Positions 35,599 to 61,672 of a stretch of 64,000 nt of DNA are shown here, in pieces; position 1 is the first letter of the stretch; each line of letters opens with the position of its first letter. Origin of the DNA: Tubulanus polymorphus (Eukaryota > Animalia > Nemertea); NCBI RefSeq assembly GCF_964204645.1, contig NC_134030.1:11119947-11183946 (forward strand), given 5' to 3'. The notes under the pieces are model-generated. The model was not told the origin of the DNA. It saw only the letters and a list, made by a program, of their open reading frames with translations, and did not search any database. A program made the translations under genes and the position numbers.

Positions 35599-35600
35599 TA

Positions 35601-40100: not shown

Positions 40101-41269
40101 CGTTCTTGGATTTAGAGAACAATACAGAGACATGGGGCCAGGCCCTCATCCATTTTTCTGACGCTTGAACATAATTTTTTTCATCGCCTGCTGTTAAAGG
40201 ATACCAGTGTAAAACCGTTATTGTCGTATTTCTGCATAGCGTTACATTCTGAAATTCCTCAACAGTTCGTGGGCTTAGATAGATTTTAACCTTCATTTTA
40301 GACATTAGATAATCTTAGCCTCATTGAATCTATTGTAATCGTTATTATCCTTTTTCACATAAAACATGCCTGAAATTGTGAGCATATACCATTCCTAATT
40401 TCAACTAAGAAAGTGCTCAGAAAGCACCTAAACGCATCTCATTCTTCAAAGACCACACCCCTTTGTGCCTTATGCACCTGTGGCCCTTTCTCCAAAAGCT
40501 AGATTCTGGAACATTTTACTGAATTACTCAATGGCATTTATTTCAAGTCTGCCCCCCCCCGCGATCATGCCACTCTCCAAAAGCGTCTTCTTTTCAGTTT
40601 GGATTCGCTTGCCAGATTCCCTGTTATAAATAGCGACATATGCTTCAGATTTGCAGTGATACGTGACAATATAACCAGCGTATAAACAGTAGTGCAAAAC
40701 TGTATGCAAACGCTATATAGTTTTCAGGGCAGTTAAAATATTCTGAATATGCTCTTTGAGGATGTGAAATATATGTGCGATAAAACTCTAACCGATAACC
40801 ATCGAGCTAAATCTGTTTGTATAATGTGATAAGTTTTGAAGTTTTAAGATTGATCGAAATTGCCTTTATTTCATGGCAATAATTTAATGAAAATTCAATT
40901 GGAAGATTAAATGCAGCTTTTTCAAGTATAGGTAACATGATTTTTGATTATTTTTGTCATTAAAATGGTTTATTTTCGGAAAAATACCCCTGTAAATATC
41001 CCCCGGTAAAAATCTCCTCTATGTAAATGTCCCCCTTGCTAACAGCAACATTTAATAAAATACTTCAATATTCTGATTTTGAAAAGCTTAAATCGTTTCA
41101 AAAATTTCAAATTTTCCGTGTTGTCTTTCCCAATATTCATCATGAATAATCTGTGACTTTTACTAAGCTGCGTACCTACATATAAGATGACATAATTCGT
41201 GACTTTTAGCAAGCAACATGCATAAAAAATGATGATATTATCAGATGTAAGATAAAACCCACTATTTAA

Positions 41270-41370
41270 AGATTAAAAGAAATCTAAAATCGAGAATTAT
41301 TTATTGAAATAATCTAAAACGTAAGAACATGGCGTTTCGATCTCACACTAGAGACCATCGTCAGGTGTGA
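41270..41370 (-). mobile_element. 3' terminal part of a Penelope-like element with a degenerate hammerhead-ribozyme motif
   Basis: Minus strand CTGACGA-T-GGTCTC-tagtgt-GAGATC-GAAAC followed by AATAAA; collinear with the GIY-YIG remnant on the other side of the Maverick. Confidence 0.6.
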
Positions 41371-41376
41371 GATATT

Positions 41377-41780
41377 AGTAGTATAGTCAGAGGGGGGTTC
41401 TGGCACAGCTAACTTTTGGGCTAACTGTGCTAATGTGAGCTAACTTTGAGCTAATGTAAGCTAACTTTTGAGCTAATCTGAGCTAACTTTTGAGCTAATC
41501 TGAGCTAATGTCGGTTAACATCTGAGCAAACTTTTGAGCTAATCTGAGCTAATGTTGGTTAACATCTGAGCTAATCTGAGCAAACTGTTGAGCTAATGTG
41601 AGCTAATATCGGTTAACATCTGAGCTAATTTGAGCTAATGTCGGTTAACATCTGAGCTAATCTGAGCTAACATTGAGCTAATGTGAGTGAATGAATGTTA
41701 ATACCGAGCTAATGTGAACTAGTTATCGGGCTAATGTCTATGTGTTATATGGAGCTAATGTGGGTTAACTATTGAGTTAG
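41377..41780 (+). repeat. Maverick left TIR (404 bp) made of GAGCTAA / GGTTAAC short repeats
   Basis: Reverse complement of 55444-55847; one mismatch noticed by eye. Confidence 0.95.
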
Positions 41781-42614
41781 CTATTGAGCTAATGTGTGTT
41801 AATGTTGTGCTGATGAGGGTTAACAGCGGGTTGTTTATACTATTTCTGGTATATGAGTAAATTTCTGAAAGTGTTGTGAAAGGGGGTACAGTAAAATCTG
41901 ATAGAACAAAGTATATGTTATAAGTATGGTATGATGATGTAATTATTTCGAGTGTTAATTAAACAGGGGAGACAAAACTATAAGTATAGCAAGATATTTT
42001 TTATTGAATGTGTCTGAAATGAATTCAACAGACAGGTGTGGATGTGATGGTGAATGTAGTTGAATAACAATAGGGGCTAACATGATAGTTGGGATATGCG
42101 AACTCAGATGACCTGTTAATGAGAATACAGAACAATAACACTCCGGTGTAATTTCGAGAGTTCCCACCGACGGTAATGGCATTTTTTCTCTTTATAATCT
42201 TCATTATGAATACTGGGTTCAATGTGATTTATTAGGTTTTGCTTCCGAGAATACTATCATAAATGAATTTATCGTCGGACATCTGTATTGAAACTCCCTG
42301 TTCTTTTCAAAAAGTAATGTGTTCAGAAGGTATTATCTGTTTGTTTTATTCGTTTCTGTTGATGACTGTTTGACTGAATAGATAGTAATATAGATTTTCT
42401 ACTCTGATGACCATCCCGGTGGTAAACCGTGAGAAAGTTTGAATATTCTCTTAACAGGGGGGTAAAACAGACATAGGTGGAGTGACAGTATTTAAAGAAA
42501 CAATGAAGATCAATCACGTGATTTAAAGTAGACCAATGGAATGATTCTGTGGTAACTTAAAAATTACGTTGATTGGTAAATTTTAACATCCTATTGTTGA
42601 TCGAACATTTAAAA

Positions 42615-42758
42615 ATGCCGACTACCGCAGCACGGTCTTTTTCGTTCCAACGCGCCGAAGTATCCAACAACGCAGAACCACGCTATCATCATCATCATCA
42701 TCATCATCGACATTATCGTCACCAAAGGAGACTAAGGAAAGAAAACTCATTTACTAAG
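42615..42758 (+). CDS. Putative 48-codon His/Arg-rich leader exon
   Basis: AAAATG start, MPTTAARSF..HHHHHHHRHYRHQRRLRK..TK, then a consensus donor AAG|GTAAGC; CACGTG and CCAAT boxes upstream. Confidence 0.45.
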
Positions 42759-42901
42759 GTAAGCTACGTATTATTTTCCTTAATTCTACATAATTCTTTT
42801 GTTTAGATATTCTCAATGTGAAATATGTATACTCGTTATCGAAATTTTTGCATTGTATCGAAAAATATTTTACAATTTTTATCAATTTTTTAAGATGAAA
42901 T

Positions 42902-43369
42902 TTACATTCTAATGAAATACTTGCTAACAAATTGTTTAACATAATAATCATTATACTCGTAATCAGTTTTACTAAAACTACTGAATATCTCGGGAAAACA
43001 CATACCGTGTGAGAGAAGAGTTACAAAATATATGCAATAATATCCGCAATTCGTACTAAACAAACTTTGTACTCTAACTCGAGAATAATCCCAGTAATGA
43101 CAGTGTGTATCTAAATAGTTTCTTAATATAATATTATAGAATTGCGGTTGTTGTCCGTAACTATCTAGGAAATAACCTTGTTTATTTGCAAATATTATAA
43201 AACAAATCCAATGTTCTCCGCTCTTATCACTATTTTGAGAGTTTACAATGAAAATACTGGGATACTCAGGAGGTTCGGGTAAACGATCAGCTGCGTAGAC
43301 ACCTTTAAACAATTTGTTCGCACAAGTATCTTCGCGCAAAATATTAATTAATTGATCGGTATACAACAT
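42902..43369 (-). CDS. Adenain-like cysteine maturation protease (155 aa from the ATG at 43369)
   Basis: GEHWI (His), FLDSYG (Asp), VQSLFSTNCGYYC (Gln, Cys); lies directly downstream of the capsid gene. Confidence 0.92.
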   Translation of the reverse strand: MLYTDQLINILREDTCANKLFKGVYAADRLPEPPEYPSIFIVNSQNSDKSGEHWICFIIFANKQGYFLDSYGQQPQFYNIILRNYLDTHCHYWDYSRVRVQSLFSTNCGYYCIYFVTLLSHGMCFPEIFSSFSKTDYEYNDYYVKQFVSKYFIRM

Positions 43370-43373
43370 CTTT

Positions 43374-44693
43374 TTAAAAATCTGTGACAACAGTGCGGTC
43401 TTTTGTAATTTCCAACACTTCATCAAAGTTGGCGTATAATAGTAAATTAATATTTTCTGGTAGAGGTTTTGAAAATTCCAATTCAACGCGAAGGGAACCC
43501 TTTTTACTGATAGCCAGGTCACTGAATCCGAAATCAGGTGTCAGATCGAATGCGGTTAGGAAATATCCGTTAGCATAATCTTTTCTGGTTATTCCAATTG
43601 TCTTATCTTGATATAAAATACCGGTGCCAGTGAACAATGAGAAATATCCTTCACTCAAGTCTTTCGACTCGAAATTTATTGCCGACGCTTCAACTTGCGA
43701 CCCATTGATGGACACCGCAATTCTAGTGATATCATAGTGTTTAAAGTCGAACGGGTTTTTATCGTAACTTCCACTCAGCGATTCGTCCGAGCAGAATCCG
43801 ATAATTATATTCCTCGGTAAATTTCCAATTATCAGATTATCTCTTATAACACTGCGTACTCCACGTGGTATATTCACCGGAAAAATGCTTGTTTTTACAA
43901 AATGGTATTTGGCATTACTAGTAGCCAATGCTTTCTCATGCGCTAACTGAACTGACGGGCTTAGTTGTACTCGTCGCACATTTAATGTAGCGTTTTCAAT
44001 TTTCACTTTGAACTTTACGTCTGGATTCGGGGACATTAAACAAAATGCATCCTTACTTCTGATTAACTTAACTTTAACCGTTACATTCGAGAGAAGTAGT
44101 TTATCTAGTCCGAACGCATCGCTGTGTAATCGAAGTTGCGCTTTTACGAGATTGTTCGGCTTTTTCAGTAAATCATAACGTTCTTTGAGACCCGAGTTAC
44201 AATTCGCGCTTCTAGGATCTGTATCGTTCATACGCCCGGCTTCGTCTTTATATATCATAGCACTTTCCATCCATCCCGGTTTCGTAGATGATTGACAAAA
44301 TATCAAGTTCTCAATAGCGGCTCTAATCGGGTGTAAGTCCATTCCATTACTAATTAATTTGTCGTTGAATCGTACCTCGACGTCACTGAATAGTGACTGA
44401 GCGTAATTAATAAGGGTAGCTACGGGATCATCTGCTTTGTCATTGTTCATCGGACTGCCATCGCCCTTTACAATTTTAAACGTTGCATCTAACCACGTGT
44501 GGTTTAAATCTAGATAATGTTGTGAGTTACCGGTTATAAGAAAATCGATATTTCCGCTATCCGTAATTGTAGCTAACGGTTGATATTTAGCATAATGTGC
44601 GGACTCCATAGTGATATTAGTCATCGGCAGTGAAAAGATGTCCAATTCACTCTTGAGTGCAGGGTGCGAGTCTTTGTGTACTTTCAAACCCAT
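43374..44693 (-). CDS. Major capsid protein (double jelly-roll, Maverick PY)
   Basis: 439 aa; KSELDIFSLP, YLDL, NPFDFKHY, GYFLTAFDLTPD and GSLRVELEF are typical Polinton MCP blocks. Confidence 0.9.
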   Translation of the reverse strand: MGLKVHKDSHPALKSELDIFSLPMTNITMESAHYAKYQPLATITDSGNIDFLITGNSQHYLDLNHTWLDATFKIVKGDGSPMNNDKADDPVATLINYAQSLFSDVEVRFNDKLISNGMDLHPIRAAIENLIFCQSSTKPGWMESAMIYKDEAGRMNDTDPRSANCNSGLKERYDLLKKPNNLVKAQLRLHSDAFGLDKLLLSNVTVKVKLIRSKDAFCLMSPNPDVKFKVKIENATLNVRRVQLSPSVQLAHEKALATSNAKYHFVKTSIFPVNIPRGVRSVIRDNLIIGNLPRNIIIGFCSDESLSGSYDKNPFDFKHYDITRIAVSINGSQVEASAINFESKDLSEGYFSLFTGTGILYQDKTIGITRKDYANGYFLTAFDLTPDFGFSDLAISKKGSLRVELEFSKPLPENINLLLYANFDEVLEITKDRTVVTDF

Positions 44694-44756
44694 GTTATAT
44701 CAGTGTTGATGTTGGCGATAACAATGAAGATGTTAACAATGATAACGATCAGTTAA

Positions 44757-45149
44757 TTAATATGCTTCCAGGCTTTCGATTGTTCCACGTTGACGTTTCA
44801 CCCGACGTCTATTCGACTTCGATTTTACTTTACGTTTTCTCTGATTATTCGGGGCTTTTAATACATTTCGAACGGCTGTTTTACCGTTATTCAATAACGA
44901 TTCTCCTAGATCTCTTCCACCAATGACGTCACCTATTGTGTTGACACCGGCTTTAACTATATGTGGTGCTGCTTTCTTTGCAATTGTCTTAAACAAAGGG
45001 ATCGCTCCCCTGAATAATCCTCCCAGAATAGATCCGATTCCTGCTCCTTTTTGTATCGGTCTACCGTGATAGAAATCATTCCCGCCACCCGCCTGCCGTA
45101 AATAATAATTACAGCAAGCGTCTTGATCTATGATACATTCGGTTTTCAT
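44757..45149 (-). CDS. Small basic Gly-rich virion core / membrane-active protein
   Basis: YYLRQAGGG, QKGAGIGSILGGLFRGAIPLFK amphipathic segment and a Lys/Arg tail; located between the penton and MCP genes. Confidence 0.8.
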   Translation of the reverse strand: MKTECIIDQDACCNYYLRQAGGGNDFYHGRPIQKGAGIGSILGGLFRGAIPLFKTIAKKAAPHIVKAGVNTIGDVIGGRDLGESLLNNGKTAVRNVLKAPNNQRKRKVKSKSNRRRVKRQRGTIESLEAY

Positions 45150-45958
45150 AGTAACAACTTTCGTCTAAAATGTAACACGAGGGATACTTTGCCCCTTTTA
45201 AAGATGGGCGGAGTACCACTGTCCTTAAACATATAGATTTCAATAACGTCCAGTCGATTACTCCTGAGCGGAAGATAATAAGGTCGTCTAAATTCACGAT
45301 CTATAACTGTTTGATTTATATCGTTTACACCTACAATCCTTAACAAAGGTGCGCTATCGTGTCCAACTTGTTGATGTTGAATTAACTCTGAATAGATTAA
45401 GATGTTATGATTATCGGCCATAAGGTCGACCGGTCTAGACGCTATGACCTCGACGTAGCCGAAGTTATCGGATGAACTTGCTTTTCCTATGATTTTAGTT
45501 TCGGTAATATCATCACTAAAAATGTCGGCGTCGACTACATGCATCGAAGGGAAGCCCAACACCCAGGCTAATTCCTTCCTGAACTTAATTTTCGCGTTAG
45601 CGGATAATCTAATCGAAACTCGTTGGCTTATCTCATTATACATTAGTTGTATTTTATTCGCTGCCGGTGATCGCGTTATAACCGAGTTCACATGTTCTAT
45701 CAATGTTTCGATATTTCTATACACACCGCCTGGCACGCTATACGCGTCACTCCATTGTCCATCACCAGAGTCCACATAAAATTCTCCAGTAATTACGTTG
45801 TCGAATTCGCAATTGAAATTTATGTGAACTAACGCGACTTCCCAATTACCTTCTAGGTTAATCGTCCCTCTCAATTTAACTTTAAACTTTTCTTGAGAGT
45901 TTCCTGGAAATTCATCCACGCTTCCATCGCTCAATAATGTTAGATAAAAGTCATGCAT
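45146..45958 (-). CDS. Minor capsid protein (penton, Maverick PX)
   Basis: FYLTLLSD..FPGN..F..L.GNWEVAL N-terminus and IYSELI..VG..APLLR..LHFR C-terminus. Confidence 0.88.
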   Translation of the reverse strand: MHDFYLTLLSDGSVDEFPGNSQEKFKVKLRGTINLEGNWEVALVHINFNCEFDNVITGEFYVDSGDGQWSDAYSVPGGVYRNIETLIEHVNSVITRSPAANKIQLMYNEISQRVSIRLSANAKIKFRKELAWVLGFPSMHVVDADIFSDDITETKIIGKASSSDNFGYVEVIASRPVDLMADNHNILIYSELIQHQQVGHDSAPLLRIVGVNDINQTVIDREFRRPYYLPLRSNRLDVIEIYMFKDSGTPPIFKRGKVSLVLHFRRKLLL

Positions 45959-47045
45959 TCTTCTTCTTTAGTTCTCGTGCCGGAATCCACGAATTGAATT
46001 TCGTCGGGTATCCCAACCACTTCACGAGCAACTCGCGGTTTCTTCCTCGACCGCGTCTTCTTATAATCTTCTCCACTCGGTAAACATCGTCGTTTTTAAT
46101 TACTTTTTGTAATTCGTGACGATAGAATTGTCCCTGAACCTGCTCACCCATTTGATCTATAACGTTATATGTCGGTGGGTTGTGCGGGATCTGTTTTGAA
46201 ACCGAGAATATTTCGTGCGACCATCCGGGTAAATAACCCTTGTCGAAATCTTTCTTATATCTTGCGATTCTGACGGTATCCCCAATAGAAAACTTGTACT
46301 GTTTGTTCATAAGAGACTCTTTTCCGTATAGGTTTTCCCACACCAACTTCTCATTATTTTCACTAACTTGAGACGGGTTCATTTTTATCGACCTATGATA
46401 CGAATTGTTGTAGGCATTTATAATCTTAGGAAGAACATCTATATAGGTTTTCGTCTTGTACGCGGTCATATAGCGGAATAATCTTCCCTTTAACGTTCTG
46501 ATGAATCGCTCGACAATACTACATTTCACTGTATCCTCGCTCGTAAAGTGATGAATGTTATACTTCTTTGTTATCTTACTAAAATATGCATTCAAAAATT
46601 CTTTGCCCTTATCACTTTGAACTTTTTTCATACGACTTTTAATCGCTATACCTTCGAATGCGCTACTAACTTCTCCACCATTTTTCGACTTTAGGGGTAT
46701 GGCGTAAGCGAATTTAGAAAAAACGTCGATCGAAACCAGTAGATATTTAATTCCTTTATTATACTTAGATATATTCGATAAATCACACAAATCGATTTGA
46801 TGCTGTTGATTGATACCGGATACTATTGTTCTATTCCTCTTGAAACGCACGCGAGTAGGACGATGAAGCGTATATGCCTCTTGCGATTTCAGAAAGTCTC
46901 TAATAACGTCTATACCAATTTCATTTCCGGACAGCTTCGCGGCGCGATGTAATGCATTCAAACCACCGAATGCGCTTGGGTTTTCTGGGTTGTAGTACAG
47001 GTTGTTCAGTATCTTTTTCAAGTCCGAGGTCAGGCGAGTCGACAT
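45951..47045 (-). CDS. int: Retroviral-like DDE integrase with C-terminal chromodomain
   Basis: LYYNP, QIDL (D), IDVFSK, QSDKGKEF (D), IVERFIRT (E), YNNSYHRSIKMNP; chromodomain YRVEKII..LVKWLGY..FNSWIP. Confidence 0.96.
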   Translation of the reverse strand: MSTRLTSDLKKILNNLYYNPENPSAFGGLNALHRAAKLSGNEIGIDVIRDFLKSQEAYTLHRPTRVRFKRNRTIVSGINQQHQIDLCDLSNISKYNKGIKYLLVSIDVFSKFAYAIPLKSKNGGEVSSAFEGIAIKSRMKKVQSDKGKEFLNAYFSKITKKYNIHHFTSEDTVKCSIVERFIRTLKGRLFRYMTAYKTKTYIDVLPKIINAYNNSYHRSIKMNPSQVSENNEKLVWENLYGKESLMNKQYKFSIGDTVRIARYKKDFDKGYLPGWSHEIFSVSKQIPHNPPTYNVIDQMGEQVQGQFYRHELQKVIKNDDVYRVEKIIRRRGRGRNRELLVKWLGYPTKFNSWIPARELKKKNA

Positions 47046-47142
47046 CGTCTTTCACTTTTGACTGTTGCACACAACACGAAATGTTGAATTTTTTACAATT
47101 AATGTTAATGAGCGATTGCGGTAAACAATCAGACTTCATCAT
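46921..47142 (-). CDS. Small Cys-containing ORF (73 aa) overlapping the integrase 5' end
   Basis: ATG 14 nt after the TBP-like stop; fills the only gap in the gene array; overlaps int by 125 nt in another frame. Confidence 0.4.
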   Translation of the reverse strand: MMKSDCLPQSLININCKKFNISCCVQQSKVKDDVDSPDLGLEKDTEQPVLQPRKPKRIRWFECITSRREAVRK

Positions 47143-47155
47143 TTCGTTATCCCGA

Positions 47156-47692
47156 TTATTCACACATATGCATATTGAACAACACATGCGGCAACACCGA
47201 AATCATCTGCTTTAAAGATTTACACCCGCTAATAATCACACATCCCTTATGTTGTATTATAAATGTAACATTTCCACAGCGAGATATGAGGCTGGGGGTG
47301 ATCTCCGGATCATATCGCCCACCTAATAACGTGTGTAGTTGGGATAAGTTAACTTTAATTCCCGTTCTCGCAACACCTGTCATTGTTTGAATTTTAAATT
47401 CTGTCAATCTAACGGCGGCAGTGGTATTAATCTTTTGTATCAATCTAGCAAATCGTCGCACACTGGTATAACTCTCGCTGGATGACTTTGCTCCGTTACA
47501 TACTATTCTCCCGCTTGCGAATAATAGACACGTGCCCCTGATGCGCTTATTCCTAAGAATTAATGCGTTAAATTTACGAGGGTTGTACACTACGTTTGAC
47601 ATTGTCCTAGACAACTCCTCTAGATTGAGCTTACAATTAAGATTTGCAGTCGCTACTACATTAACAACGTCGATCATTTCTGATGTTACCAT
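47156..47692 (-). CDS. TBP: TATA-box-binding-protein-like protein (divergent TBP core, 178 aa)
   Basis: Two TBP repeats: NVVATANL, YNPRKFNALILR, LLFASGRIVCNGAKS, RRFARLIQK; then FKIQTMTG, YDPEITPSLISR, VIISGCKS. Intronless and lacking an N-terminal extension. Confidence 0.9.
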   Translation of the reverse strand: MVTSEMIDVVNVVATANLNCKLNLEELSRTMSNVVYNPRKFNALILRNKRIRGTCLLFASGRIVCNGAKSSSESYTSVRRFARLIQKINTTAAVRLTEFKIQTMTGVARTGIKVNLSQLHTLLGGRYDPEITPSLISRCGNVTFIIQHKGCVIISGCKSLKQMISVLPHVLFNMHMCE

Positions 47693-47958
47693 TACGAGAA
47701 CTAGATACTAAATGAACTTGGATAAAATGAGATAGAATCTAAATTTTCTCCATTCATTCTCTTTCAGATATAGATCACTCGACGACAACGACGACGACGA
47801 CGTATATTAGAATTTCAAACTTACATTAGATTCATCAAAACGTATCAAGACAATCGAATAAAAAAGGTAATCCGATGATAAATTAGCTTTATCATTATTA
47901 TTATTATTACTATTATTATTATCATTATATTCTACAAATACACTAAACAAAAATATGT

Positions 47959-48696
47959 TCACATATAAATCCAATTTTCGAAATCTATATCTTTAGAATT
48001 TTTAGATGGCGTAGTCATCCTCCTCCTCTTCGTCATCTTTGCTTCGAATTCATTCTTAACGTTCGGGCGATTGTTAATTAATTTATTTCTAACGAATTTA
48101 TTCGGGATAAACGTCTGTGGAACGGACATATCTTGTAATGCCTTGATGAAATCGTCGAGTCCGTTCATTTGTTGAGACTTGTTAGGTGTCATGCAGAGAT
48201 TGATTAAATCGACGATATTACTATCATCTCTTTTGACACCTTTTACTATTATCTCCCCCTTATCGGTCCATGACAATATTTCGGAATATCGCTTTATTCG
48301 CTCCAATAACATTTCCGATTTCTTTCTATAGTTTTTCGGTACGTTATTCAAAATTTCCTGGTCGAATTCACTTTTAGTTTCGGTAGTTCGTTTTAAATCA
48401 CGATCGGTATTCAATGCACTGCTTTTACTTACTATGTTAGAATTAGTGATCGTCGACTCCTTTGAATGTTTTTCGATTTGCATTAGTTTATTCAACGCGT
48501 CGTTATACATCTTCAATTTCACGTCGTCCTTCACATCATTATCCATTTGAAGGATATCGGACATTTGACTTTCTATATTTTTCACGCGATTCGTTTCACC
48601 ACTCGAAGATTCTCGCTTGTCATCGGTTGATGTGATTTTTTCAATCATGGGAATAAATGATCCCGGAACAACGTAAAGTTTTTCAACGTTCTTCAT
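47959..48696 (-). CDS. Conserved Maverick protein of unknown function (PZ-like)
   Basis: 245 aa; K.KMYNDAL, LSWTDKGEI, SNIVDLI, G..DF..AL...VP..FI.N and a C-terminal W, as recalled from Maverick accessory ORFs. Confidence 0.7.
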   Translation of the reverse strand: MKNVEKLYVVPGSFIPMIEKITSTDDKRESSSGETNRVKNIESQMSDILQMDNDVKDDVKLKMYNDALNKLMQIEKHSKESTITNSNIVSKSSALNTDRDLKRTTETKSEFDQEILNNVPKNYRKKSEMLLERIKRYSEILSWTDKGEIIVKGVKRDDSNIVDLINLCMTPNKSQQMNGLDDFIKALQDMSVPQTFIPNKFVRNKLINNRPNVKNEFEAKMTKRRRMTTPSKNSKDIDFENWIYM

Positions 48697-49019
48697 TCCA
48701 TAAACCCGAGTAGTCGACCGATTCCTTTCAGTATCAGTCCAAGGAAACCGCCTTTTTGCACGATTAATGATTTTTTCGATTTAATCGGTACTCGTCTATT
48801 AGCGAGAATTCGAATCCACTTCTTATGTCGCTTCAATTTCTTTTTATCCGATTCGCTGTGTTTGATATTCCCTCTTAATGAATTTATACAGACTTCGCAA
48901 ATAACTTTCACTAATCTGTTCGACGATGATGACAGAATCGCATCGCGCATATTTTTCTTTCCATCGCATAAAAGTCTTAAGTGAGGAGCGAATTCCTTCA
49001 AATGCAAGTGGTTCCTCAT
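48693..49019 (-). CDS. Small basic conserved Maverick protein (PW/core-protein-like)
   Basis: 108 aa; ICEVCINSLRGNI, Lys-rich stretch, C-terminal QKGGFLGLIL; ATGA overlap with the next gene. Confidence 0.75.
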   Translation of the reverse strand: MRNHLHLKEFAPHLRLLCDGKKNMRDAILSSSSNRLVKVICEVCINSLRGNIKHSESDKKKLKRHKKWIRILANRRVPIKSKKSLIVQKGGFLGLILKGIGRLLGFME

Positions 49020-49052
49020 TTTATCAATTGACGATGTTCGCGTGAAATTACA

Positions 49053-49700
49053 TTATTTAATACTTTTTATCTTATAATAAATATGATATCCCTCGCTGGG
49101 AAATATTCGTGTGCGTAATCTCCATTTGTCCGACGTTTGTGGTTTGAAATCACAAAATAGATATCCACGCGGTGAAATTGAGGTCGCATCTGTAAACGCC
49201 TCCTCGAGCGATTTACCTAACCCGGACTGCATCGCTAAAGTCTTTACTTGGAGTCGATCCCTCGGATGCTTGAATAGAACTATATAATGCGTGTTTAACG
49301 ATATTGTCCGAAAATGAGGTCCTCTCGGGAAAAGGGTTTGCGATATTAGAATCACTTGAAGTTTTCTATGATGACTACCACGTGTAAAAATGGTCTCCAA
49401 TAATTTGGGGTCGCACTCGTTCAATACATCATCCAAAATAAGTAGTTTTGTTGTCTCTGAACCTGACAAACTTTCGTACAATTCCTCTGTTAAACCCTTA
49501 ATAAACTCAACTCCCTCTGTATCGTGATAGATTTCCTGATCTTCGGCGTACACCCAAACTATACGATCGGGAAATGGATCGAACATTCTTTCTTCAATCA
49601 ATCTTTTAGTAAAGACTGTCTTCCCGATACCAGTCATTCCATTGATAATCGACGTGAACCATCCTTGCAATTTAGTCGGCGGTAAATCAGCTATTTCCAT
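49053..49700 (-). CDS. A32/FtsK-like DNA packaging ATPase
   Basis: Walker A GMTGIGKT, Walker B LLILDD, RGSHHRK, ISQ, RTISLNTHY. Confidence 0.95.
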   Translation of the reverse strand: MEIADLPPTKLQGWFTSIINGMTGIGKTVFTKRLIEERMFDPFPDRIVWVYAEDQEIYHDTEGVEFIKGLTEELYESLSGSETTKLLILDDVLNECDPKLLETIFTRGSHHRKLQVILISQTLFPRGPHFRTISLNTHYIVLFKHPRDRLQVKTLAMQSGLGKSLEEAFTDATSISPRGYLFCDFKPQTSDKWRLRTRIFPSEGYHIYYKIKSIK

Positions 49701-49822
49701 TGCCCCCTTTTACCACAGATTAACAGAATCAAAATTAACAGCGATCTATCCAAAACACGTTCATTTTAAAGATTATTATCCACACATTATATTTATTTCT
49801 GTCTTCCTTTCTTTTTCTTTAG

Positions 49823-50361
49823 ATGGCACAGAAACAAGTATCAGAACGACTCAGCTTAGGACCAGTCGCCCTACCCAAGCGGTATGGGTGCACAATGTGC
49901 GAGCTGGTGTTCGCACACGCCAGCTCGAGATCCCGGCACATTAACCGGGTGCACAAAAAGAGTAAACCGCTTTGTGCCAAATGCGGGGAGGGGTTTAGCA
50001 CGACGGCCTACCGGGACAGGCACCAATCACGTTGTGCGAGACCCCTCCCAATCCCAGCGGCACGACGGCGACTGGTCCTTGAAGCACCGGCACCGCCAGC
50101 AGCAGCAGTAGGGGCGCCGCCAGCAGCAGCAGTGCCAGCAGCAGCAGTAGGGGCGCCGCCAGCAGCATCAGTGCCAGCAGCAGCAGTGCCAGCAGCAGTA
50201 TTGCCAGCAGCAGCAGTAGGGGCGCCACCAGCAGCATCAGTGCCAGCAGCAGTATTGCCAGCAGCAGCAGTAGGGGCCCCACCAGCAGCAGCAGCAGTGC
50301 CAGCAGCAGTGCCAGCAGTAGTAGGGGCACCACCAGCAGCAGCAGGGGCACCACCAGCAGC

Positions 50362-50399
<38 letters not shown>

Positions 50400-53300
50400 G
50401 GGCACCACTGGAATGGGAATGGGAAGAGTTACCGGATCTTGATGAGGAAACTCTTGCCCTCATCGGGATCCGGCAAGGTGGCGCCTTAGAGGGGTATGTA
50501 CGAAAATACGAGTTCCCATCCACTGAAAACAACAAGTTTGATTTAATTAAATTTTATAACGATATCAAACCGCATCTCATCCGACTGCTTAAAGATGATT
50601 TAAGTAGATTGGGTGGGATAAAATGGTTTACCAGCATTCATATAATTTTAGAAAAAGATATCGATGGTGTCCATCAACAAAGGACTGTGTATTTTACTAG
50701 CCACACTCGAAGTGCTTTCAATGGTGAACAATTTGACGAGCTCTTGGATCAGGCTAAGAATAAAATGATCCAATTATTGGAACAATACAATACTGAGGGT
50801 ACTGGTTGGAGGTTTGATTATGTCGAAGTGTTCGATCTACACGTCGGCATATATGAACCATTAGGTGGAGGTTCGTATATACCCTCTCCTCGTGTAATCG
50901 TTTCACGAGGAGGGGTTATAAATATCCAAAATTTCGACAATATGTGCTTTCTTTGGTCTATACTCGCCCACCTCCACCGAATGGACACGAACCCCCAACG
51001 AGTATCTAAGTATTTACGGTACAGAGACGAATTGAATATGAACAATATCAATTATCCAGTAACCGTAGAACAAATACCCATTTTCGAACAGCAAAACGAT
51101 ATATCAGTTAACGTATTTGCCTATGAGGATGGAAATATTTTTGTTCGTCGTTTGAGTGATAATCCACGCGCAAATCATGTTAATTTATTATTACTAGTTG
51201 ATAACGATAACGCCCATTATTGTTTGATAAATGACCTTAGTAAATTCCTTTTCCATCTAAACAAAAAGAAAGCCAAATGTTTTTGGTGTTTTAAGTGCAT
51301 GCACTCTTTTTTATCGCAAGAAAATCTTGATGTTCATACTCGGTACTGTATTCAAGGAATACAAAAGACAATCATGCCACCGACAGATGAGAATGTCTTG
51401 AAATTTGTTAATGTCACAAAACAGCACAAACTGCCATATGTGATATATGCTGACTTCGAAATGTTTTTAGAACCGATTGAGGGGTGTAAATTGAACCAGA
51501 ATCAATCTTGGACATATCGTTATCAGGTTCATGAACCGTGTGGATTTTGTTTTAAAGTCGTTGGCCCTGACACCAGACATTCCCATCCGACAGTCCTTTA
51601 TAGAGGAGACGATGTTATGAAGAAATTCTTAACATCCCTCCTCGAAAAAGCAGAGGAAATATTACAGGAATACAAAAATCCTCAACCTTTGGTTATGAAC
51701 GACGTCGATGAAACACACTTCAAATCAACTGATATTTGTCATATATGTAAGGAAACCATAAATGGTAAGAAATGTCGGGATCACGATCATATAACCGGCA
51801 AATACAGAGGCCCAGCTTGTAATTCATGTAATCTGAGTTATAGGGTTCCTAATTTCATACCTGTGATATTTCATAACTTGAAAAGTTATGACAGTCATGA
51901 AATTATTAGATCATTGGGCTTGGTTGAATTTAGGGGGTATAGAATTTCAGTGATCCCGACGAACACTGAAAAGTTTATCGGATTTACACTTGGTCCCCTA
52001 CGCTTCATCGACTCGTTGGCATTTCTCAATACCTCTCTCAGTACTCTTACGGAAAATTTGGTCAATTCGGGTAGAGAGAAATTCATTCATTTAAACTCGG
52101 AGTTCCCCGCCAATAAACTTGATCTTTTATTACGTAAAGGTGTTTACCCATACGACTACATGACAGGTTCGGAGAAATTTAATGAGACAAGTCTCCCTCC
52201 TAAGGAGGCATTTACCAACACCCTGACGAACACTGAAATTTCGGTAGATGACTACAAACATGCACAGAATATTTGGTCGCAGTTTAACATGGCAAACATG
52301 GGCGAGTATCACGATCTCTATCTTAGAACCGACGTATTGCTACTTTCAGATATTTTCGAGGAATTCCGCAAGTTCGCTCATAAGAGCTACGGATTAGATC
52401 CTTGTCATTACTACACTCTACCCGGCTACTCATGGGATGCCTGCTTGAAACTGACAAAAGTCGAACTTCAATTGTTCACTGAAGTCGATATGTATTTGTT
52501 CATAGAACAGGGGATACGCGGCGGAATATCTGTTATTACCCATCGATATTTCGAGGCTAATAACAAGTATTTCGCCGATTACGACGAGGCCAAGGAGTCA
52601 TCTTATATCATGTATTTAGATGCTAATAATCTGTATGGGTGGGCAATGTCTCAGGCATTGCCTGTTGGTGAATTTAGGTGGTTAGAAACAGAAAACGATC
52701 CCCTTTGGCCCGACGCTCAGGATATTTTAACGATGACGGACGACGCCCATTTCGGCATGATACTCGAAGTGGACCTTGAATACGGTGCCGAGTTACACGA
52801 TCTACATAACGATTTACCGTTAGCTCCGGAGCGCATGTTAGTCAACGAAGATTTAATGTTATCTCCGTATCAAAAGCTTCTATTTCAGACTTTGAAACTA
52901 TCGTCCAGCAAGATACACAAGCTTATCCCTAATCTTTACAATAAAACTCGGTATATTGTTCATTATAGGAATTTGAGGCTTTACATGAAACTTGGTATGA
53001 AATTAACAAAGATTCATCGTGTTCTCCATTTTCGACAATCAGCCTGGATGTCACCGTACATTGCTTTGAATACCGAATTCCGAAAAAATGCGAAATCCAA
53101 TTTTGAGAAAGATATGTACAAATTACTGAATAATGCAAGTTTTGGCAAGACAATGGAGAACATTAGGAATCGAATCAACTACCAAATTATTAACGAACCG
53201 GGGAAATTGAGAAAAGCTCTAGCGAAGCCATCTACGATTTCATGGAACATTATTTCGGAGAATGTTGTGGGGGTAAAAAAACAGCAGATTTCGATCAAGT

Positions 53301-53926
53301 TGGATAAGCCTGTGTATCTTGGCTTTTCAATTTTAGACATAAGCAAAACGTTAATGTATGATTTTCATTATAACACCATCAAGGCAGGATACGGGGATAA
53401 CGCTAAACTTCTTTTTACAGATACGGATAGTTTAACGTACGCTATTCGCAGCAACGATTTGTACACGGATATGGCGGGGATTTCCGACCAGTTCGACTTT
53501 TCAGCCTATCCCACCGGCCATCCTTTATTCTCGGACAAAAATAAGAAAGTACTAGGCAAATTTAAGGATGAGACCAATTCTTTTCCCGTTAAAGTGTTCT
53601 GCGGTTTACGGAGTAAGATGTATTCAATGACATATCTTTCTCCGGATAACAACGGAACACTTGTGGAAAAGAAAACTGCAAAAGGTGTTGCGAAGTACGT
53701 CGTTAAGCAGTCCGTATCCCATAATAACTACGTTGATTGCTTGCGTAATCAATCACGTATGATGGCTAACATGCGGTCTATCCGGAGCTTCAATCATAAG
53801 TTACATTCAGTTAATTTAAATAAAGTCGGATTATCACCATACGACGACAAACGTTATATACTAGATGATGGTGTAAGCACATATGCTTATGGTCATCATA
53901 AAATTCCGGAGATAAATCATCATTAA
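49823..53926 (+). CDS. polB: Protein-primed family B DNA polymerase with N-terminal zinc fingers, Ala/Pro linker, terminal-protein and OTU-like regions, and an endonuclease VII-like insert
   Basis: Exo motifs YADFE, FHNLKSYD, YLRTDV; Pol motifs YLDANNLYG, KLLNNASFGK, FTDTDS; HNH-type CHIC..DHDHITGKYRGPACNSCN; uninterrupted 1367 aa. Confidence 0.97.
50085..50408 (+). repeat. Coding GCA-rich minisatellite (Ala/Pro/Val linker in pPolB)
   Basis: Recurrent GGGGCGCCGCCAGCAGCA / GTGCCAGCAGCA units and a (GCA)n run. Confidence 0.9.
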
Positions 53927-54376
53927 AAGAACAAGTCGTTATACTTAATATATATTTGCATATCTTTATTTATTCATAGTTATAAACATTGATTTATTTA
54001 CACTCACTTATACATGCGTTTATGTTTTCAGTTTTACTTTAAACTATTTAACTAATATATATATTTATTTATTTATCTTATCTATTTATTTAAGATTATA
54101 TGAAAGTTGGTAAACCATTGGTTTAATATCGTTATAAGTGTTTTCTATATTTCTTTTTATTTCAGGGATGGGATCTAACTCGTACCCCCTCTAAGCGCAC
54201 CTTTTCCCGTTTTTTTTTTTTTCTTCCTTTTCTACTTTTTTATGCCAATTTCCCTATAATTCTTTTTTAAAATAAATAAAGAAAAAACCAGCATTTGATT
54301 ATTAACATAATTCATGACTTTAGTTTTTGATATTTATCTATATATGGATTGAGGATACAGGAGATACATATATTCA

Positions 54377-55227
54377 TTAATCATCGATTTGGAATACAGG
54401 ATGAGGATTACAGTAAACACACTGGAGAGCACCCATCTGATTCTGATGATCATCATTGAACATACACGCTTTCATCCCAACGAGTTCAGGTTCCAAATCA
54501 ACGAAAGAAATATTCATCAGTTTCTCCCACTGTTTTTCAGATAGTTCTATCCCGGTTTTCGTATGAACTCGTTGTTCCGTTGCAGCTATATAACAAAAAT
54601 ATCTAATGTCGATTATAACCTTATTGAAACGTTTGAACACGGTCACGTATCGGTTCCTACCGACGTGTAATCGAAAATCCTCTATGATATTATTGTTATT
54701 GTTGCTTTCATTAAACGAATTGATGGCGGAATTTATGGAATCTCTATGCCAGTCGAGATTAGCCCATTCTTGCAGGTGTAGGCTAATGCCGCGTTTCGTT
54801 GGAAATAATCGAAGGTCATCACTGAGTTCATAAGTTCGTATGTCAACACGTTTAACATCCTGCCACTCGCTGACACACGCAAACACTAAATTGCCCAGAT
54901 AATGACGTTTCACATCCGCTTTCGCATAGACGTATTCTTCTTTAGACTCACTCAGTTTTATATCCGTTTGTACACAAGCATTCTCTTTAACAACCGTATC
55001 TATGACAAAAGAAAAGATAATATGGTTACATTACAAGTGAAACAATAAATAACTCAAAGGAGGAGAGGATGTTTTACAAACAAACAAATTAATTACACAT
55101 ACATACCAGGCTTAGCAGCGTTAATATCTAGCTTTAAATTCTTGAAATTCAGTCTTCGAGGCCTCTTTTTTGGAGCATCAGGTTCAGACATGTTTCGTTT
55201 CAACACGGGAGTTGTGTGCGTATCCAT
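54377..55227 (-). CDS. Two-exon gene for a tandem PC4 (p15/Sub1)-like ssDNA-binding protein, about 247 aa
   Basis: Exon 1 55227-55107 (NLS-like PKKRPRR), GT-AG intron 55106-55000, exon 2 54999-54377 in frame. Two PC4 repeats: VSEWQDVKRVDIRTY..PTKRGISL..EW and YVTV..KVIIDIRYF..TKTGIELSEKQW. Confidence 0.85.
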
Positions 55228-55267
55228 GATCAACTCAACGAATGAAATCACCTTTGGAGAACACACG

Positions 55268-55289
55268 TTATATACCCCTCATGACGTCA
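55268..55289 (-). promoter_or_regulatory. TATA box plus CRE/ATF site upstream of the PC4-like gene
   Basis: Minus-strand TATATAA at 55274-55268, about 40 nt before the ATG, and a perfect TGACGTCA at 55282-55289. Confidence 0.6.
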
Positions 55290-55443
55290 GATATTTTTCA
55301 GAACGAGGATCGTAATCATCGAAACAATTGATAATTTGCATATGTTTATATTCATCCAGATCTAACCATATTCAAATGATCTCGTTTATAAATTTCACAC
55401 ACACCAGCTCAATAGATTACCATAAAAACCGGTAACTAAATAC

Positions 55444-55847
55444 CTAACTCAATAGTTAACCCACATTAGCTCCATATAACACATAGACATTAGCCCGATA
55501 ACTAGTTCACATTAGCTCGGTATTAACATTCATTCACTCACATTAGCTCAATGTTAGCTCAGATTAGCTCAGATGTTAACCGACATTAGCTCAAATTAGC
55601 TCAGATGTTAACCGATATTAGCTCAGATTAGCTCAACAGTTTGCTCAGATTAGCTCAGATGTTAACCAACATTAGCTCAGATTAGCTCAAAAGTTTGCTC
55701 AGATGTTAACCGACATTAGCTCAGATTAGCTCAAAAGTTAGCTCAGATTAGCTCAAAAGTTAGCTTACATTAGCTCAAAGTTAGCTCACATTAGCACAGT
55801 TAGCCCAAAAGTTAGCTGTGCCAGAACCCCCCTCTGACTATACTACT
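55444..55847 (-). repeat. Maverick right TIR (404 bp)
   Basis: Ends CTGACTATACTACT followed by the TSD GATATT. Confidence 0.95.
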
Positions 55848-55853
55848 GATATT

Positions 55854-57190
55854 GACTAAAAACAAGGGTATATATAAAGAGGAGAACAGGTTAATTGAGT
55901 AAATTGGTGAGTGAGTAACTAATTAGTGTTTGGCAAGGCATGAAGTAATATACTTAGAAAGAAGGGAATTATGAGGAGAAAAGCCATTATTTAAATTGGT
56001 ACTAATATCTGAGTGACGAGTAATTAGGGAAGACTCAACTATGTGGCGTTTAGTGTAATTGCTGGAAGTATAAATAATTTCAGCTTGTTTATCAAAATTA
56101 AAACGATGACCAGTGTTCCAAACATGATTGGCTACACCACTAGCCGGTTTTTGATTTATTATATCCTTTTTGTGTTCCGAAATTCGAGTTTTTAAATCAC
56201 GACCAGTTTATCCAAAGTACATTTTATCACAGCCAAAACGAGGAATTTTGTAAACTCCGCAGTCCAAAGGTTTAGATTGATTGTTTTTTACCAAAGTCTT
56301 GTTAATTTGGTTTTCATACGTGAAAATGATTTGTCTATCCAATAAAGGGAGAGAGTGACGAAACTTTTCCAAAACAGGTACATACGGAACTACAATGAAT
56401 TCTGAAATGTTTTTTTTTATTTTCTGGAGGTTTAGAATTAAAGAAAGTACGTTTAGCCTTAGAAATAGCGATTTTCAAAATGTGATCAGGGTAAGCCAAT
56501 TTTTTAAGAGAGTTGGATATGTGGTCAAATTCAGCCGAAAGGAAGGTTTCATCGCAAATCCGCAGTGCACGGAGAAAGAGGCCTTGAAAAAAACAAATGA
56601 GAGTATTTATTGTGAATTAGAACGTCTAAAAACGGGATTTGGTCATTTTGTTCCCATTCAAATGTGAATTTCAAAGATGGATATTGAGAGTTGATGAATG
56701 AAGTCAATAAAAGAGTTAAGATCAAAATCATCAGAAACTAAAGTACAGAATGTTATCAACACATCCAATCCAAAAGTTAGGTCCAGAGCAGCGTAATTTC
56801 GGAAGAATTTCGCATTCAAAATGTTCAAGGAAAAGATTAGCCAAAATGGGGGATAATGGGTTGCCCAAAGCGAAACCGAAATTTGTTCATAGATTTTGTC
56901 TTGGGACTGGAAGTATAGATTGGTTGTACAGAGCTCCAAAAGTTCAAGTAAGCAATCTACAGGAACCGGGAGATCAAGATTGGAGTCCGGGAGTTTTCTT
57001 CTTAATAAATTGAGAGTTGGTTCCAATGGTATATTTGTGAACAAGGATCGATATAGCGTCGAAACATATAAATTTTTGGCCATTAGGTTTGAGATTTTTT
57101 AGTTAGTCTAAAAGATCCATATTGTGCCGAATGTGAGAATCAGAAAAAGTACCCAGAGCGGGTACTGTACTTTAGCCAGATATTTTGACG
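55854..57190 (-). pseudogene. Decayed Penelope-like retroelement (RT + GIY-YIG endonuclease)
   Basis: RT remnants SLFTNIPL, NLYFQ..IYEQ, FTFEWEQNDQIPFLDVLI; GIY-YIG remnant CGVYKIP..CDKMYFG*TGRDLKTRISEHK..VANH at about 56265-56120; several frameshifts. Confidence 0.85.
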
Positions 57191-59935: not shown

Positions 59936-61672
59936 TAAACCATTTTACAGTTGCTAGCCGCCATTTTGTTAGGGTACTTTTGTCCCGTATTGTTGGGTCA
60001 TTTTTTTCTCTTTTTTAAAAACTATCCGTGATGTGTATTGTATCATATTTCATCTGTCGATGGATGGATTTTGACAACTTCAGCAACATTCAAACCGCGT
60101 GAATCTCTAGTTTTCAGTTATGTTAAAATCATTCCTCAGATTTACAACAATGCGACATGAGAGCGATATAAAAATCGGTGCTCAGTTTTTGCCTTGCGCA
60201 TAGAAATCCAGGGTACTGAACTTTGAAGTTCGTTATTTTCAGAAATAATTTTCTAAAAAATCCAAACATTTCAAGCACTGTGCGCATAAATGCCCCCTTT
60301 TAGGTGAACTTTGAAATTTTAAGATATCTTGCCTAGTTTTTTTCCTATGGCTCTTTAACTGCAGCGCGTGTATTGTCATTCCGAGATTCGGCGCTGTTTT
60401 CTTTGCGTGTATTTCAGTATATGGGAGTTATTTCTTCATTTTCACTACACTTGTCTCTACGGAAAATGGTTTTAATTGTTGGTACGAGTATCAGGTTTAA
60501 ATATCACGTCGTTTATGCAATATAATAGATCGGAGACATTAGAGATGTTGGGGTTTAAGGGATTTTTCTGACCAGTTTTAGCAGCGAGACTGAGCGGCAT
60601 TTTGATCACGCATTCGAAGTTGCGCGCGGGAAGAGAATATATGGGCCTATATTGAGATGGAAGAAGAAAAGAAATATAGCACTCAAAATCGAGTATGATG
60701 ACCATTTAAATCAGTAGTCTATCAATAAATTTACATAAAAATCTACTGAAATTAGATGGATGGAGAAGTGGTCAAAAAGCTGGACAAATGGGGTGGGGCA
60801 AATATTCAGCTACTTTCTATGAATACTTTCTATTAAGTACACTCAAGATTGATTAGATTGGGAAGAAAATATAGGAAAACGTTTTCTTTTTTTCGAATGT
60901 CAGACGCAGGTGATAAAAAGTAAAAAGTGACATCTACCATCACCAAAAACGCAAGAAGTGTGTGGATTGCATTTACAACAAAAGAGTGATATTTTGGGTT
61001 TTCTTAGGTGCATGTACGTAAGCCTCTGCCTGCCGTAAAAGCGGTTACCATTACAGCCATTACGAACTAGCGCCGGAGAACGGAATACAGTATTAATGCC
61101 GTAATATTTAAACCTGATACTCGTACCAACAATTAAAACCATTTTCCGTAGAGACAAGTGTAGTGAAAATGAAGAAATAACACCCATATACTGAAATACA
61201 CGCAAAGAAAACAGCGCCAAATCTCGGAATGACAATACACGCGCTGCAGTTAAAGAGCCATAGGAAAAAAACTAGGCAAGATATCTTAAAATTTCAAAGT
61301 TCACCTGAAAGGGGGCGTTTATGCGCACAGTGCTTGAAATGTTTGGATTTTTTAGAAAATTATTTCTGAAAAAAACGAACTTCAAAGTTCAGTACCCTGG
61401 ATTTCTATGCGCACGGCAAAAACTGACCACCGATTTTTATATCGCTCTCATGTCGCATTGTTGTAAATTTGAGAAATGATTTTAACATAACTGAAAACTA
61501 GAGATTCACGCGGTTTGAATGTTGCTGAAGTTGTCAAAATCCATCCATGGACAGATGAAATATGATACAATACACATCACGGATAGTTTTTAAAAAAGAG
61601 AAAAAAATGACCCAACAATACGGGACAAAAGTACCCTAACAAAATGGCGGCTAGCAACTGTAAAATGGTTTA
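59936..61672. repeat. 569-bp inverted duplication (59936-60504 vs 61104-61672) with a ~600-bp spacer
   Basis: Arms are reverse complements with only a few substitutions; no TSD seen. Confidence 0.9.

What the first reader, a model, noticed from the sequence alone, without database searches (positions are those of the whole stretch)
47156..47692. Element-encoded TBP with a half-remodelled DNA-binding surface
Seen: repeat 1 keeps both intercalating Phe (RKF, LLF). In repeat 2 the canonical QNMVG, ELFPG and LIFVSGK become QTMTG, EITPS and IIQHKGC, losing the Asn and both Phe. The acidic TFIIB-binding stirrup YEPE survives as YDPE. Established: loss of these Phe in TRF2/TLF accompanies loss of TATA binding. 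Inference: an altered-specificity TBP, or a decoy that sequesters TFIIB.
Basis: partly seen in the sequence, partly recalled or inferred. Interest (0 to 1): 0.88.

Follow-up and report, generated by a model that had tools for sequence, protein, structure and literature searches.

The report
Polinton TBP with rewired DNA face
A complete virus-like Polinton (Maverick) transposon carries its own TATA-binding-protein gene, whose second half has a rebuilt DNA-contact surface shared with a distant relative; it likely serves as the element's private promoter reader and would bring in the host's RNA polymerase II machinery.

Summary
Observation confirmed. 47156-47692 (-) is an intact 178-aa TBP-fold gene (Pfam 1e-33; model TM 0.92 to TBP) inside a complete 14.5-kb Polinton.

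It is not a decaying host copy. It belongs to a clade of about 90 short TBPs; 19 of 26 loci fetched for one subfamily carry Polinton genes. Family dN/dS is 0.09-0.19, and a second copy in the same organism differs mostly silently.

Correction: the repeat-2 Asn is lost family-wide (0 of 89), but most members keep both repeat-2 Phe (58 of 89). The double loss is confined to two small branches. The 53%-identical nearest relative shares 12 of 15 remodelled DNA-face residues, so the surface looks rebuilt rather than decayed. The acidic TFIIB stirrup is kept (78 of 89).

Relatives carry an NN-TAAGA(A/G) box 32-35 nt before the minor capsid gene (7 of 7). This element lacks it there, and no replacement was significant. 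The element also encodes a tandem PC4.

Best reading (0.55): the element's own promoter-recognition factor, using host TFIIB/Pol II; binding is untested. This scan found Polinton TBPs and the box before, on other DNA; in print I found only a figure label.

The parts
47156..47692 (-). TBP-like gene, 178 aa, core domain only, no N-terminal extension; F41/F58 kept, repeat-2 Asn and both Phe replaced (T103, T132, Q147), stirrup D128/E130
41377..55847 (.). Complete Polinton/Maverick, 14,471 bp, AGTAGT...ACTACT ends
   Evidence: joint 41370-55848 with 6 shared letters in reads
41371..41376 (+). Left 6-bp target-site duplication GATATT
55848..55853 (+). Right 6-bp target-site duplication GATATT
41377..41791 (+). 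Left terminal inverted repeat with degenerate GAGCTAA repeats
   Evidence: (420-nt arms, 99%)
55433..55847 (-). Right terminal inverted repeat
42902..43423 (-). Adenovirus-type cysteine protease
   Evidence: Pfam Peptidase_C5 E 0.0011, below the curated cut-off; homologues in L017 and L022
43374..44693 (-). Major capsid protein, double jelly-roll
   Evidence: model pLDDT 66; best matches Sputnik, PBCV-1 and mavirus MCP, E 4e-15 to 5e-14
44757..45149 (-). 130-aa ORF in the PW position
   Evidence: synteny with the vertebrate Maverick order (PMC8097293 passages); inferred
45146..45958 (-). Putative minor capsid protein
   Evidence: weak homology to the same-position gene in related loci; synteny; inferred
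45951..47045 (-). rve integrase with C-terminal chromodomain, directly downstream of the TBP gene
47959..48696 (-). 245-aa ORF in the PZ position
   Evidence: homologue in L003; synteny
48693..49019 (-). 108-aa ORF in the PM position
   Evidence: homologue in L003; synteny
49053..49700 (-). A32-like packaging ATPase
   Evidence: weak Pfam AAA/Pox_A32 hits; homologues in 5 loci
49823..53926 (+). Putative protein-primed DNA polymerase B, 1367 aa
   Evidence: family-B catalytic motifs seen by eye (recalled); Pfam gave only Endonuclease_7, and no PolB hit in Pfam or PDB
54377..55227 (-). Tandem PC4 (p15/Sub1)-like gene, predicted to be spliced (exon 55227-55107, 107-nt GT-AG intron, exon 54999-54377)
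   Evidence: Pfam PC4 E 1.8e-17, two stretches; splice sites in phase, not shown by RNA

Best explanation
The gene encodes an intact TBP-fold protein of a Polinton-borne family that likely acts as the element's own promoter-recognition factor: it would bind a non-canonical TA-rich site before the virion and integrase genes and would recruit host TFIIB and RNA polymerase II through its retained acidic stirrup. SHOWN: fold, place in a complete Polinton, membership of a clade of element-borne TBPs, purifying selection, kept stirrup, and a fixed-distance box before capsid and integrase genes in related elements. INFERRED: DNA binding, TFIIB binding, and an early/late order (TBP, PC4 and polymerase genes read by host TBP first, box genes afterwards). 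In this branch the C-terminal lobe, whose Phe pair enters the first base step of TATA in cellular TBP, has a conserved polar face, so it probably reads a different or looser 5' half-site. That site was not identified in this element.
For: Fold. Family: profile scores split into 91 family members and canonical TBPs; one clade with FastTree 0.976 and SH-aLRT 94. Context: 19 of 26 loci have a Polinton gene, mostly the integrase next door; 16 of 26 have a PC4-like gene; 25 of 26 have one or the other. Selection: dN/dS 0.09-0.19 in the 20 of 33 listed pairs with unsaturated dS. A second copy in the same organism has 14 silent of 23 listed differences against 0.23 expected, p 1e-4. The nearest relative P0009 (53% identical) shares 12 of 15 repeat-2 DNA-face residues. 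Stirrup acidic at both positions in 78 of 89. NCLDV TBPs, in contrast, keep it in about 40% and come with their own TFIIB (PMC7221094, passages); no TFIIB was seen among the element's ORFs. Box: TAAGA(A/G) lies 32-35 nt before the minor capsid ATG in 7 of 7 related elements, 33-36 nt before the integrase in 4 of 7, and within 150 nt of the MCP in 6 of 6. At 30-40 nt it precedes TBP in 0 of 8 and PC4 in 0 of 3. The two 5' letters differ between elements. The window's polymerase is only 22% like that of L020 over 300 aa, while their integrase, ATPase and capsid genes are homologous, so the TBP travels with the virion module. Precedent: herpesvirus ORF24 with TATTWAA late promoters (PMC12529657, passages).
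Against: This element does not show the family box at the family distance: the nearest copies are 55 nt before PM (a variant), 105 nt before the minor capsid gene and 129 nt before PZ, with none near MCP, integrase or ATPase. No other motif beat the controls (the best, TRTTAA, was matched by 17 of 60 random sets). All 26 loci come from one derived subfamily, several are near-duplicates, and the query's own branch has no context except this window. The box often overlaps the upstream stop codon (12 of 29 TAA stops are followed by GA(A/G)), and MCP-upstream copies can lie in basic coding sequence. No TBP-less Polinton control was obtained. In KSHV ORF24 all four Phe are required (PMC12529657), which argues that losing two could abolish TATA-type binding. 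P0009 has N/D, not E/E, at the stirrup.
Confidence: 0.55

Rival explanations
1. Decoy or dominant-negative TBP: it no longer binds promoters and would sequester host TFIIB or other convex-face partners to dampen host or its own transcription.
For: Both repeat-2 Phe and the Asn are gone while the stirrup and helix-2 residues R79/R83 stay. No box was found in this element. TLF can repress by sequestering TFIIA (PMC3142196, passages).
Against: The new DNA face is shared with P0009 at 12 of 15 positions against 53% overall, and in the second copy it shows only silent changes at the listed codons. Most family members keep all four Phe, and their elements carry a positioned box.
Confidence: 0.15
2. 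Non-transcriptional DNA-binding role: it would bend or organise the TIRs during replication, integration or packaging, with the PC4 protein acting as a single-stranded-DNA-binding protein.
For: The gene sits next to the integrase in most loci and often next to PC4. The TIRs are made of short repeats. Repeat 1 is nearly intact and could bind a minor groove.
Against: A conserved acidic TFIIB stirrup (78 of 89) has no evident use there. The TBP occurs with two very different polymerases. Nothing links it to the TIR repeat.
Confidence: 0.13
3. TRF2-like, sequence-independent initiation factor. The TAAGA box of relatives would then be read by something else, for example as a start-site motif (it resembles the baculovirus late TAAG, recalled) or as a termination/reinitiation signal.
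For: A TATA-like role at 32-37 nt from the ATG would need 5' UTRs of only a few bases. The box often overlaps a stop codon. Trf2 lacks TATA selectivity through Phe changes, yet is found at active promoters (PMC5006001, passages).
Against: Boxes also occur away from stops with the same element-specific 5' letters (L003, L022), and they are absent before the TBP, PC4 and PZ genes.
Confidence: 0.14
4. A decaying captured host TBP with no function.
For: Some copies in another sample carry replacements, a stop or a one-base insertion.
Against: Intact ORF, old element-borne clade, purifying selection, and rejected grouping with animal TBPs. Decay of single inserted copies is expected for a transposon.
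Confidence: 0.03

Closest known systems
Cellular TBP (Pfam PF00352; eukaryotic TBP)
   Same: Two-repeat saddle (TM 0.92), N-lobe Asn and both N-lobe Phe, acidic stirrup, basic helix 2.
   Different: No N-terminal extension. The repeat-2 Asn and both repeat-2 Phe are replaced, and the repeat-1 Thr is Asn. About 31-38% identity, on a separate element-borne branch.
TRF2/TBPL1/TLF
   Same: Core-only TBP paralogue with changed Phe residues. TRF2 is reported to bind TFIIA and TFIIB but not TATA (PMC3142196, PMC5006001, passages).
   Different: TBPL1 has Trp at an N-lobe Phe position (PMC7221094). This protein keeps both N-lobe Phe and is altered in the C-lobe. No TRF2 sequence was in my tree, so kinship was not tested.
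Beta/gamma-herpesvirus viral TBP (KSHV ORF24) with TATTWAA late promoters
   Same: Virus-encoded TBP fold with a more polar DNA face, serving a private late-promoter motif with host Pol II (works-like analogy).
   Different: ORF24 is a large multidomain protein in a six-protein complex, needs all four Phe and lacks the TFIIB stirrup (PMC12529657). This one is a lone 178-aa core that keeps the stirrup.
NCLDV TBPs
   Same: Virus-borne TBP fold (Foldseek hits in BFVD).
   Different: Only 8-19% identity, and structurally further away (TM at most 0.77) than cellular TBP (0.92). They mostly lose the host-TFIIB signature and come with a viral TFIIB (PMC7221094).
'TBP' label in MELD virus maps (Starrett et al. 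2021, PMC8502044 Fig. 5 legend)
   Same: A TBP-like gene noted in an element with adintovirus-like PolB.
   Different: Only a legend entry, in a section on non-animal datasets. The figure was not visible, no residues or function are described, and I could not tell whether it is this family.
Vertebrate Mavericks (PMC8097293)
   Same: Core gene order atp-pm-pz and int-minor cp-pw-MCP-pro, TIRs, (AGT)2//(ACT)2 ends, 6-bp TSD.
   Different: TBP inserted between pz and int; a PC4 gene with a predicted intron, whereas that paper saw no introns. The word TATA does not occur in its main text.

Membership tests
TBP fold family (PF00352) | Two TBP repeats forming a saddle | tested here: met
Canonical TATA-binding TBP | Four intercalating Phe | tested here: not met
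   2 of 4: F41 and F58 kept; T132 and Q147
Canonical TATA-binding TBP | Central Asn in both repeats | tested here: not met
   N11 kept; T103, where 174 of 174 other TBPs have Asn
Canonical TATA-binding TBP | Acidic TFIIB stirrup in the C-lobe | tested here: met
   D128/E130; acidic at both in 78 of 89 family members
Canonical TATA-binding TBP | Binds and bends TATA DNA | not testable with these tools
   needs EMSA, SELEX or a structure
TRF2/TBPL1 | Trp at the N-lobe L5.1 Phe position | tested here: not met
   both N-lobe Phe kept; feature from PMC7221094
TRF2/TBPL1 | Phylogenetic grouping with TRF2 orthologues | not tested
   no TRF2 sequence recognised among the fetched proteins
Recent host TBP retrocopy | Nests with animal TBP and evolves neutrally | tested here: not met
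   AU p 0.0009
Polinton/Maverick | TIRs, (AGT)2//(ACT)2 ends, 6-bp TSD | tested here: met
Polinton/Maverick | rve integrase | tested here: met
Polinton/Maverick | Double jelly-roll MCP, packaging ATPase, protease | tested here: met
   MCP by fold; ATPase and protease by weak Pfam hits plus homologues
Polinton/Maverick | Protein-primed family-B polymerase | tested here: inconclusive
   1367-aa ORF with PolB-like motifs by eye (recalled); no Pfam or PDB PolB hit; weak match to L020 PolB, E 2e-5
Herpesvirus-type viral TBP system | Private TA-rich box before late genes | tested here: inconclusive
   present in relatives; not found in this element
Herpesvirus-type viral TBP system | Multidomain vTBP with Pol II-binding domain and partner vTAs | tested here: not met
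   178-aa core only; no such partners among the ORFs scanned
NCLDV orthogonal TBP-TFIIB system | Own TFIIB in the same genome | tested here: not met
   no TFIIB hit among the element's ORFs scanned

The most novel reading that the evidence does not exclude
Animal Polintons of this lineage run the smallest known viral early/late switch: one 20-kDa TBP with an orthogonal promoter code plugged into host TFIIB and Pol II. This branch has rewritten the code again with a TBP that intercalates from one lobe only and reads a new site through a polar C-lobe.
Probability: 0.3. Interest if true: 0.87.

Novelty: new variant of a known kind. Interest (0 to 1): 0.68.

Why it matters
How animal Polintons switch on capsid genes, and whether they behave as autonomous viruses, is open. 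A self-encoded TBP that keeps the host-TFIIB stirrup, next to a positioned box in relatives, gives a directly testable answer: a private late programme without a helper virus. The family is also a natural series of TBP DNA-face variants (Asn to Thr in nearly all, one Phe lost in a basal grade, both lost here). That makes it a test bed for how TBP specificity is encoded and whether a TBP can work with one Phe pair.

Tried and rejected
No whole genome is held for this window, so copy number and the host's own TBP/TRF2 were not examined.

Viral-contig scans with the TBP, three subfamily alignments and the integrase gave nothing usable. The one hit, L001, is a phage contig and a false positive. 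No TBP-less Polinton control for the box was therefore obtained. Broad alignments had no stretch conserved enough to scan with.

Motif searches in this element's upstream regions were negative: exact 5-8-mers were within the null, and the best degenerate motifs were matched by 17, 23 and 57 of 60 random sets. A TAATT-like candidate seen by eye is not above chance.

The complex prediction of the TBP with the element's PC4 gave no answer (score 0.01). No RNA holder was listed among sequencing runs. The ESM Atlas returned only generic TBP clusters. Cluster look-up gave no names for 10 of 10 family proteins. Rfam found nothing in the element. The VIA-align job was not run because the machine was busy. 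The origin of the family is unresolved: holding it with animal TBPs is not rejected (p 0.25).

Literature searches found no description of a Polinton TBP or PC4 beyond the Starrett legend. The one supplement held for that paper has no TBP, TATA, PC4 or TFIID text. Its figures, bioRxiv supplements and subscription papers could not be seen and may name the gene.

Full report
Observation. The ORF at 47156-47692 (-) is intact, 178 aa, and matches Pfam TBP with two repeats (E 1.4e-33). AlphaFold2 with a 26-sequence alignment gives pLDDT 96. Foldseek places it on eukaryotic TBP at TM 0.92, rmsd 1.1-1.8 A, closer than any viral TBP in BFVD (TM at most 0.77). Against 174 other TBP cores, N11, F41 and F58 are kept, the repeat-2 Asn is T103, and the repeat-2 Phe are T132 and Q147. 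The stirrup is D128/E130. On a recalled list of DNA-face positions it keeps 10 of 14 in repeat 1 and 4 of 15 in repeat 2. [quoted passage not shown] A run contig covers the gene with one silent difference; it may be the window's source.

The element. TIRs of about 415 nt (99%), AGTAGT/ACTACT ends and a GATATT duplication bound a 14,471-bp element at 41377-55847. On the - strand lie the ATPase, 108-aa and 245-aa ORFs, the TBP, an rve integrase with chromodomain, a putative minor capsid, a 130-aa ORF, a double jelly-roll MCP and a protease. A 1367-aa putative polymerase lies on the + strand; it is identified only by recalled motifs. This is the vertebrate Maverick order of PMC8097293 (passages) with a TBP put between pz and int. 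A tandem PC4 gene lies near the right TIR, probably spliced (not shown by RNA). A 7TM receptor ORF and a LINE in the window suggest an animal host; I did not determine it.

A family, not a relic. Searches and a two-profile comparison of the proteins fetched up to then separated 91 family members, nearly all 145-200 aa, from canonical TBPs. They form one clade: 76 of 76 rows, FastTree 0.976; 30 sampled rows plus 5 new ones, SH-aLRT 94. The clade lies on the eukaryotic side of the tree but outside the named eukaryotic TBPs. Grouping the query with animal TBPs is rejected (AU p 0.0009); grouping the whole family with them is not (p 0.25). No TRF2 was in the tree. The metagenome scan, made with a 25-sequence subfamily alignment that does not include the query's branch, gave 26 loci. 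19 of 26 hit a Polinton gene of the window. 16 of 26 carry a PC4-like gene, by a profile built partly from these loci; Pfam confirms PC4 at or above its cut-off in 10 of the 19 neighbour ORFs given. Only L019 (1,077 bp) has neither. Several loci are near-duplicates, so these are not 26 independent cases.

Selection. Among 23 of the 26 loci, 33 pairs passed my filter (pN under 0.22, which favours low dN). 20 had unsaturated dS and gave dN/dS 0.09-0.19. A second copy in the same organism differs at 29 places in three laid pieces, 23 of them listed. 14 are silent against 0.229 expected (p 1e-4), although only well-matching pieces are laid. T132 and P133 show silent changes, and no change is listed at Q147 or H148 (2 differences of that piece are not shown). 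In another sample, 5 of 7 further listed differences are replacements, one of them a stop, and one-base insertions occur. Some inserted copies are decaying.

What is family-wide and what is not. The repeat-2 Asn is absent in 89 of 89 members (Thr in 83), and the repeat-1 Thr is kept in 5 of 89. Both repeat-2 Phe are kept in 58 of 89. A basal grade around the query has lost the second Phe. Only P0009/P0159 (the query's sister) and P0055/P0200 lack an aromatic at both sites. P0009 is 53% identical overall but shares 12 of 15 repeat-2 DNA-face residues, so the face looks rebuilt and maintained. The stirrup is acidic at both positions in 78 of 89 (170 of 174 in other TBPs), though P0009 has N/D. 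R79 and R83 of helix 2 are kept in 85 and 87 of 89. NCLDV TBPs keep the stirrup position in about 40% and carry their own TFIIB (PMC7221094, passages and section 7; the words Polinton and Maverick do not occur). No TFIIB was seen here.

Promoter box. Earlier notes of this scan reported a TAAGAA-type box in other Polintons, and I tested this on my loci. In eight related elements TAAGA(A/G) lies 32-35 nt before the minor capsid ATG in 7 of 7, at 30-40 nt before the integrase in 4 of 7 and PM in 2 of 3, and within 150 nt of the MCP in 6 of 6. At 30-40 nt it precedes TBP in 0 of 8, PC4 in 0 of 3 and PW in 0 of 7. Per-locus enrichment in upstream windows is 13 of 20 in L020, 10 of 17 in L022 and 5 of 6 in L003 (motif chosen after seeing the data). 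The two 5' letters vary between elements, and several TBP, PC4 and polymerase genes have ordinary TATA-like boxes. Caveats: the TAA is often the upstream stop codon, the spacing implies very short 5' UTRs, and there is no TBP-less control. In this window's element the box is not at that distance before any gene, and no other motif beats chance. This fits a changed specificity in the branch that lost both Phe, but it fits loss of promoter binding too, and it is one case.

Mechanism. Most likely (0.55) the protein is the element's own promoter-recognition factor, made early and used for virion and integrase genes, handing on to host TFIIB and Pol II. It would work like herpesvirus ORF24 on TATTWAA promoters (PMC12529657, passages), but as a lone core that keeps the stirrup ORF24 lacks. 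Fold, context, selection and the relatives' box are shown; DNA binding, TFIIB binding and timing are inferred. That ORF24 needs all four Phe counts against this particular member. Rivals are a decoy (0.15), a TRF2-like non-specific factor with the box read otherwise (0.14), a TIR or replication role (0.13) and decay (0.03).

Novelty. Viral TBPs are known in NCLDVs and herpesviruses. For Polinton-like elements my eight searches found only the label 'TBP' in a figure legend of PMC8502044 (passages, section 10 and the one held supplement searched) and of its preprint (passages); the figure itself was not visible. Two 2026 preprints on Polinton-like viruses do not contain the words TBP or TATA. 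This scan has noted Polinton TBPs on other DNA. I rate it a new variant of a known kind, interest 0.68: a real, apparently undescribed family whose mechanism is directly testable, with this member an extreme natural variant whose target site remains unknown.

Noticed in passing
window 54377-55227 (-): Tandem PC4-like gene with a predicted 107-nt intron and a basic, NLS-like first exon. PC4-like genes lie in 16 of 26 related TBP loci, mostly directly beside the TBP. The search 'PC4' + 'Polinton' found no relevant paper.
   Followed up: partly
window 49800-49825 (+): The polymerase ATG is directly preceded by a pyrimidine tract ending in AG, like a splice acceptor. The ORF starts with C2H2-like motifs and a long Ala/Pro-rich stretch.
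   Followed up: no
window 41200-41376 and 55848-56500: The element is inserted in a high-copy host repeat. Reads joining the two flanks may come from other copies of that repeat rather than from an empty allele.
   Followed up: partly
run X1 record 2 (3,450 bp), matching window 47211-47687: A second, diverged Polinton-type TBP copy in the same organism, about 80% alike in the laid pieces.
   Followed up: partly
L020:552-5216 versus window 49823-53926: TBP-bearing elements carry very different polymerases (22% over 300 aa) with homologous virion modules, in line with the module swaps described in PMC8502044.
   Followed up: partly
L009, L015, L017, L020, L022: The TAA of the TAAGA(A/G) box is often the stop codon of the gene upstream.
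   Followed up: partly
window 32651-37070 (-): LINE with a zinc-knuckle plus GDSL-esterase ORF1 and a split ORF2 (RVT_1 in 32651-33799).
   Followed up: no
window 59936-61672: 588-nt inverted repeat, 97% complementary, 561 nt between the arms.
   Followed up: no
window 62647-63270 (-): rva_4-type integrase core ORF.
   Followed up: no
window 3124-4080 (+): Single-exon rhodopsin-family 7TM receptor ORF, pointing to an animal host.
   Followed up: no
L003:5016-6169: Small zinc-finger-like, His/Pro-rich ORFs before and fused to the ATPase, each with the box upstream.
   Followed up: no
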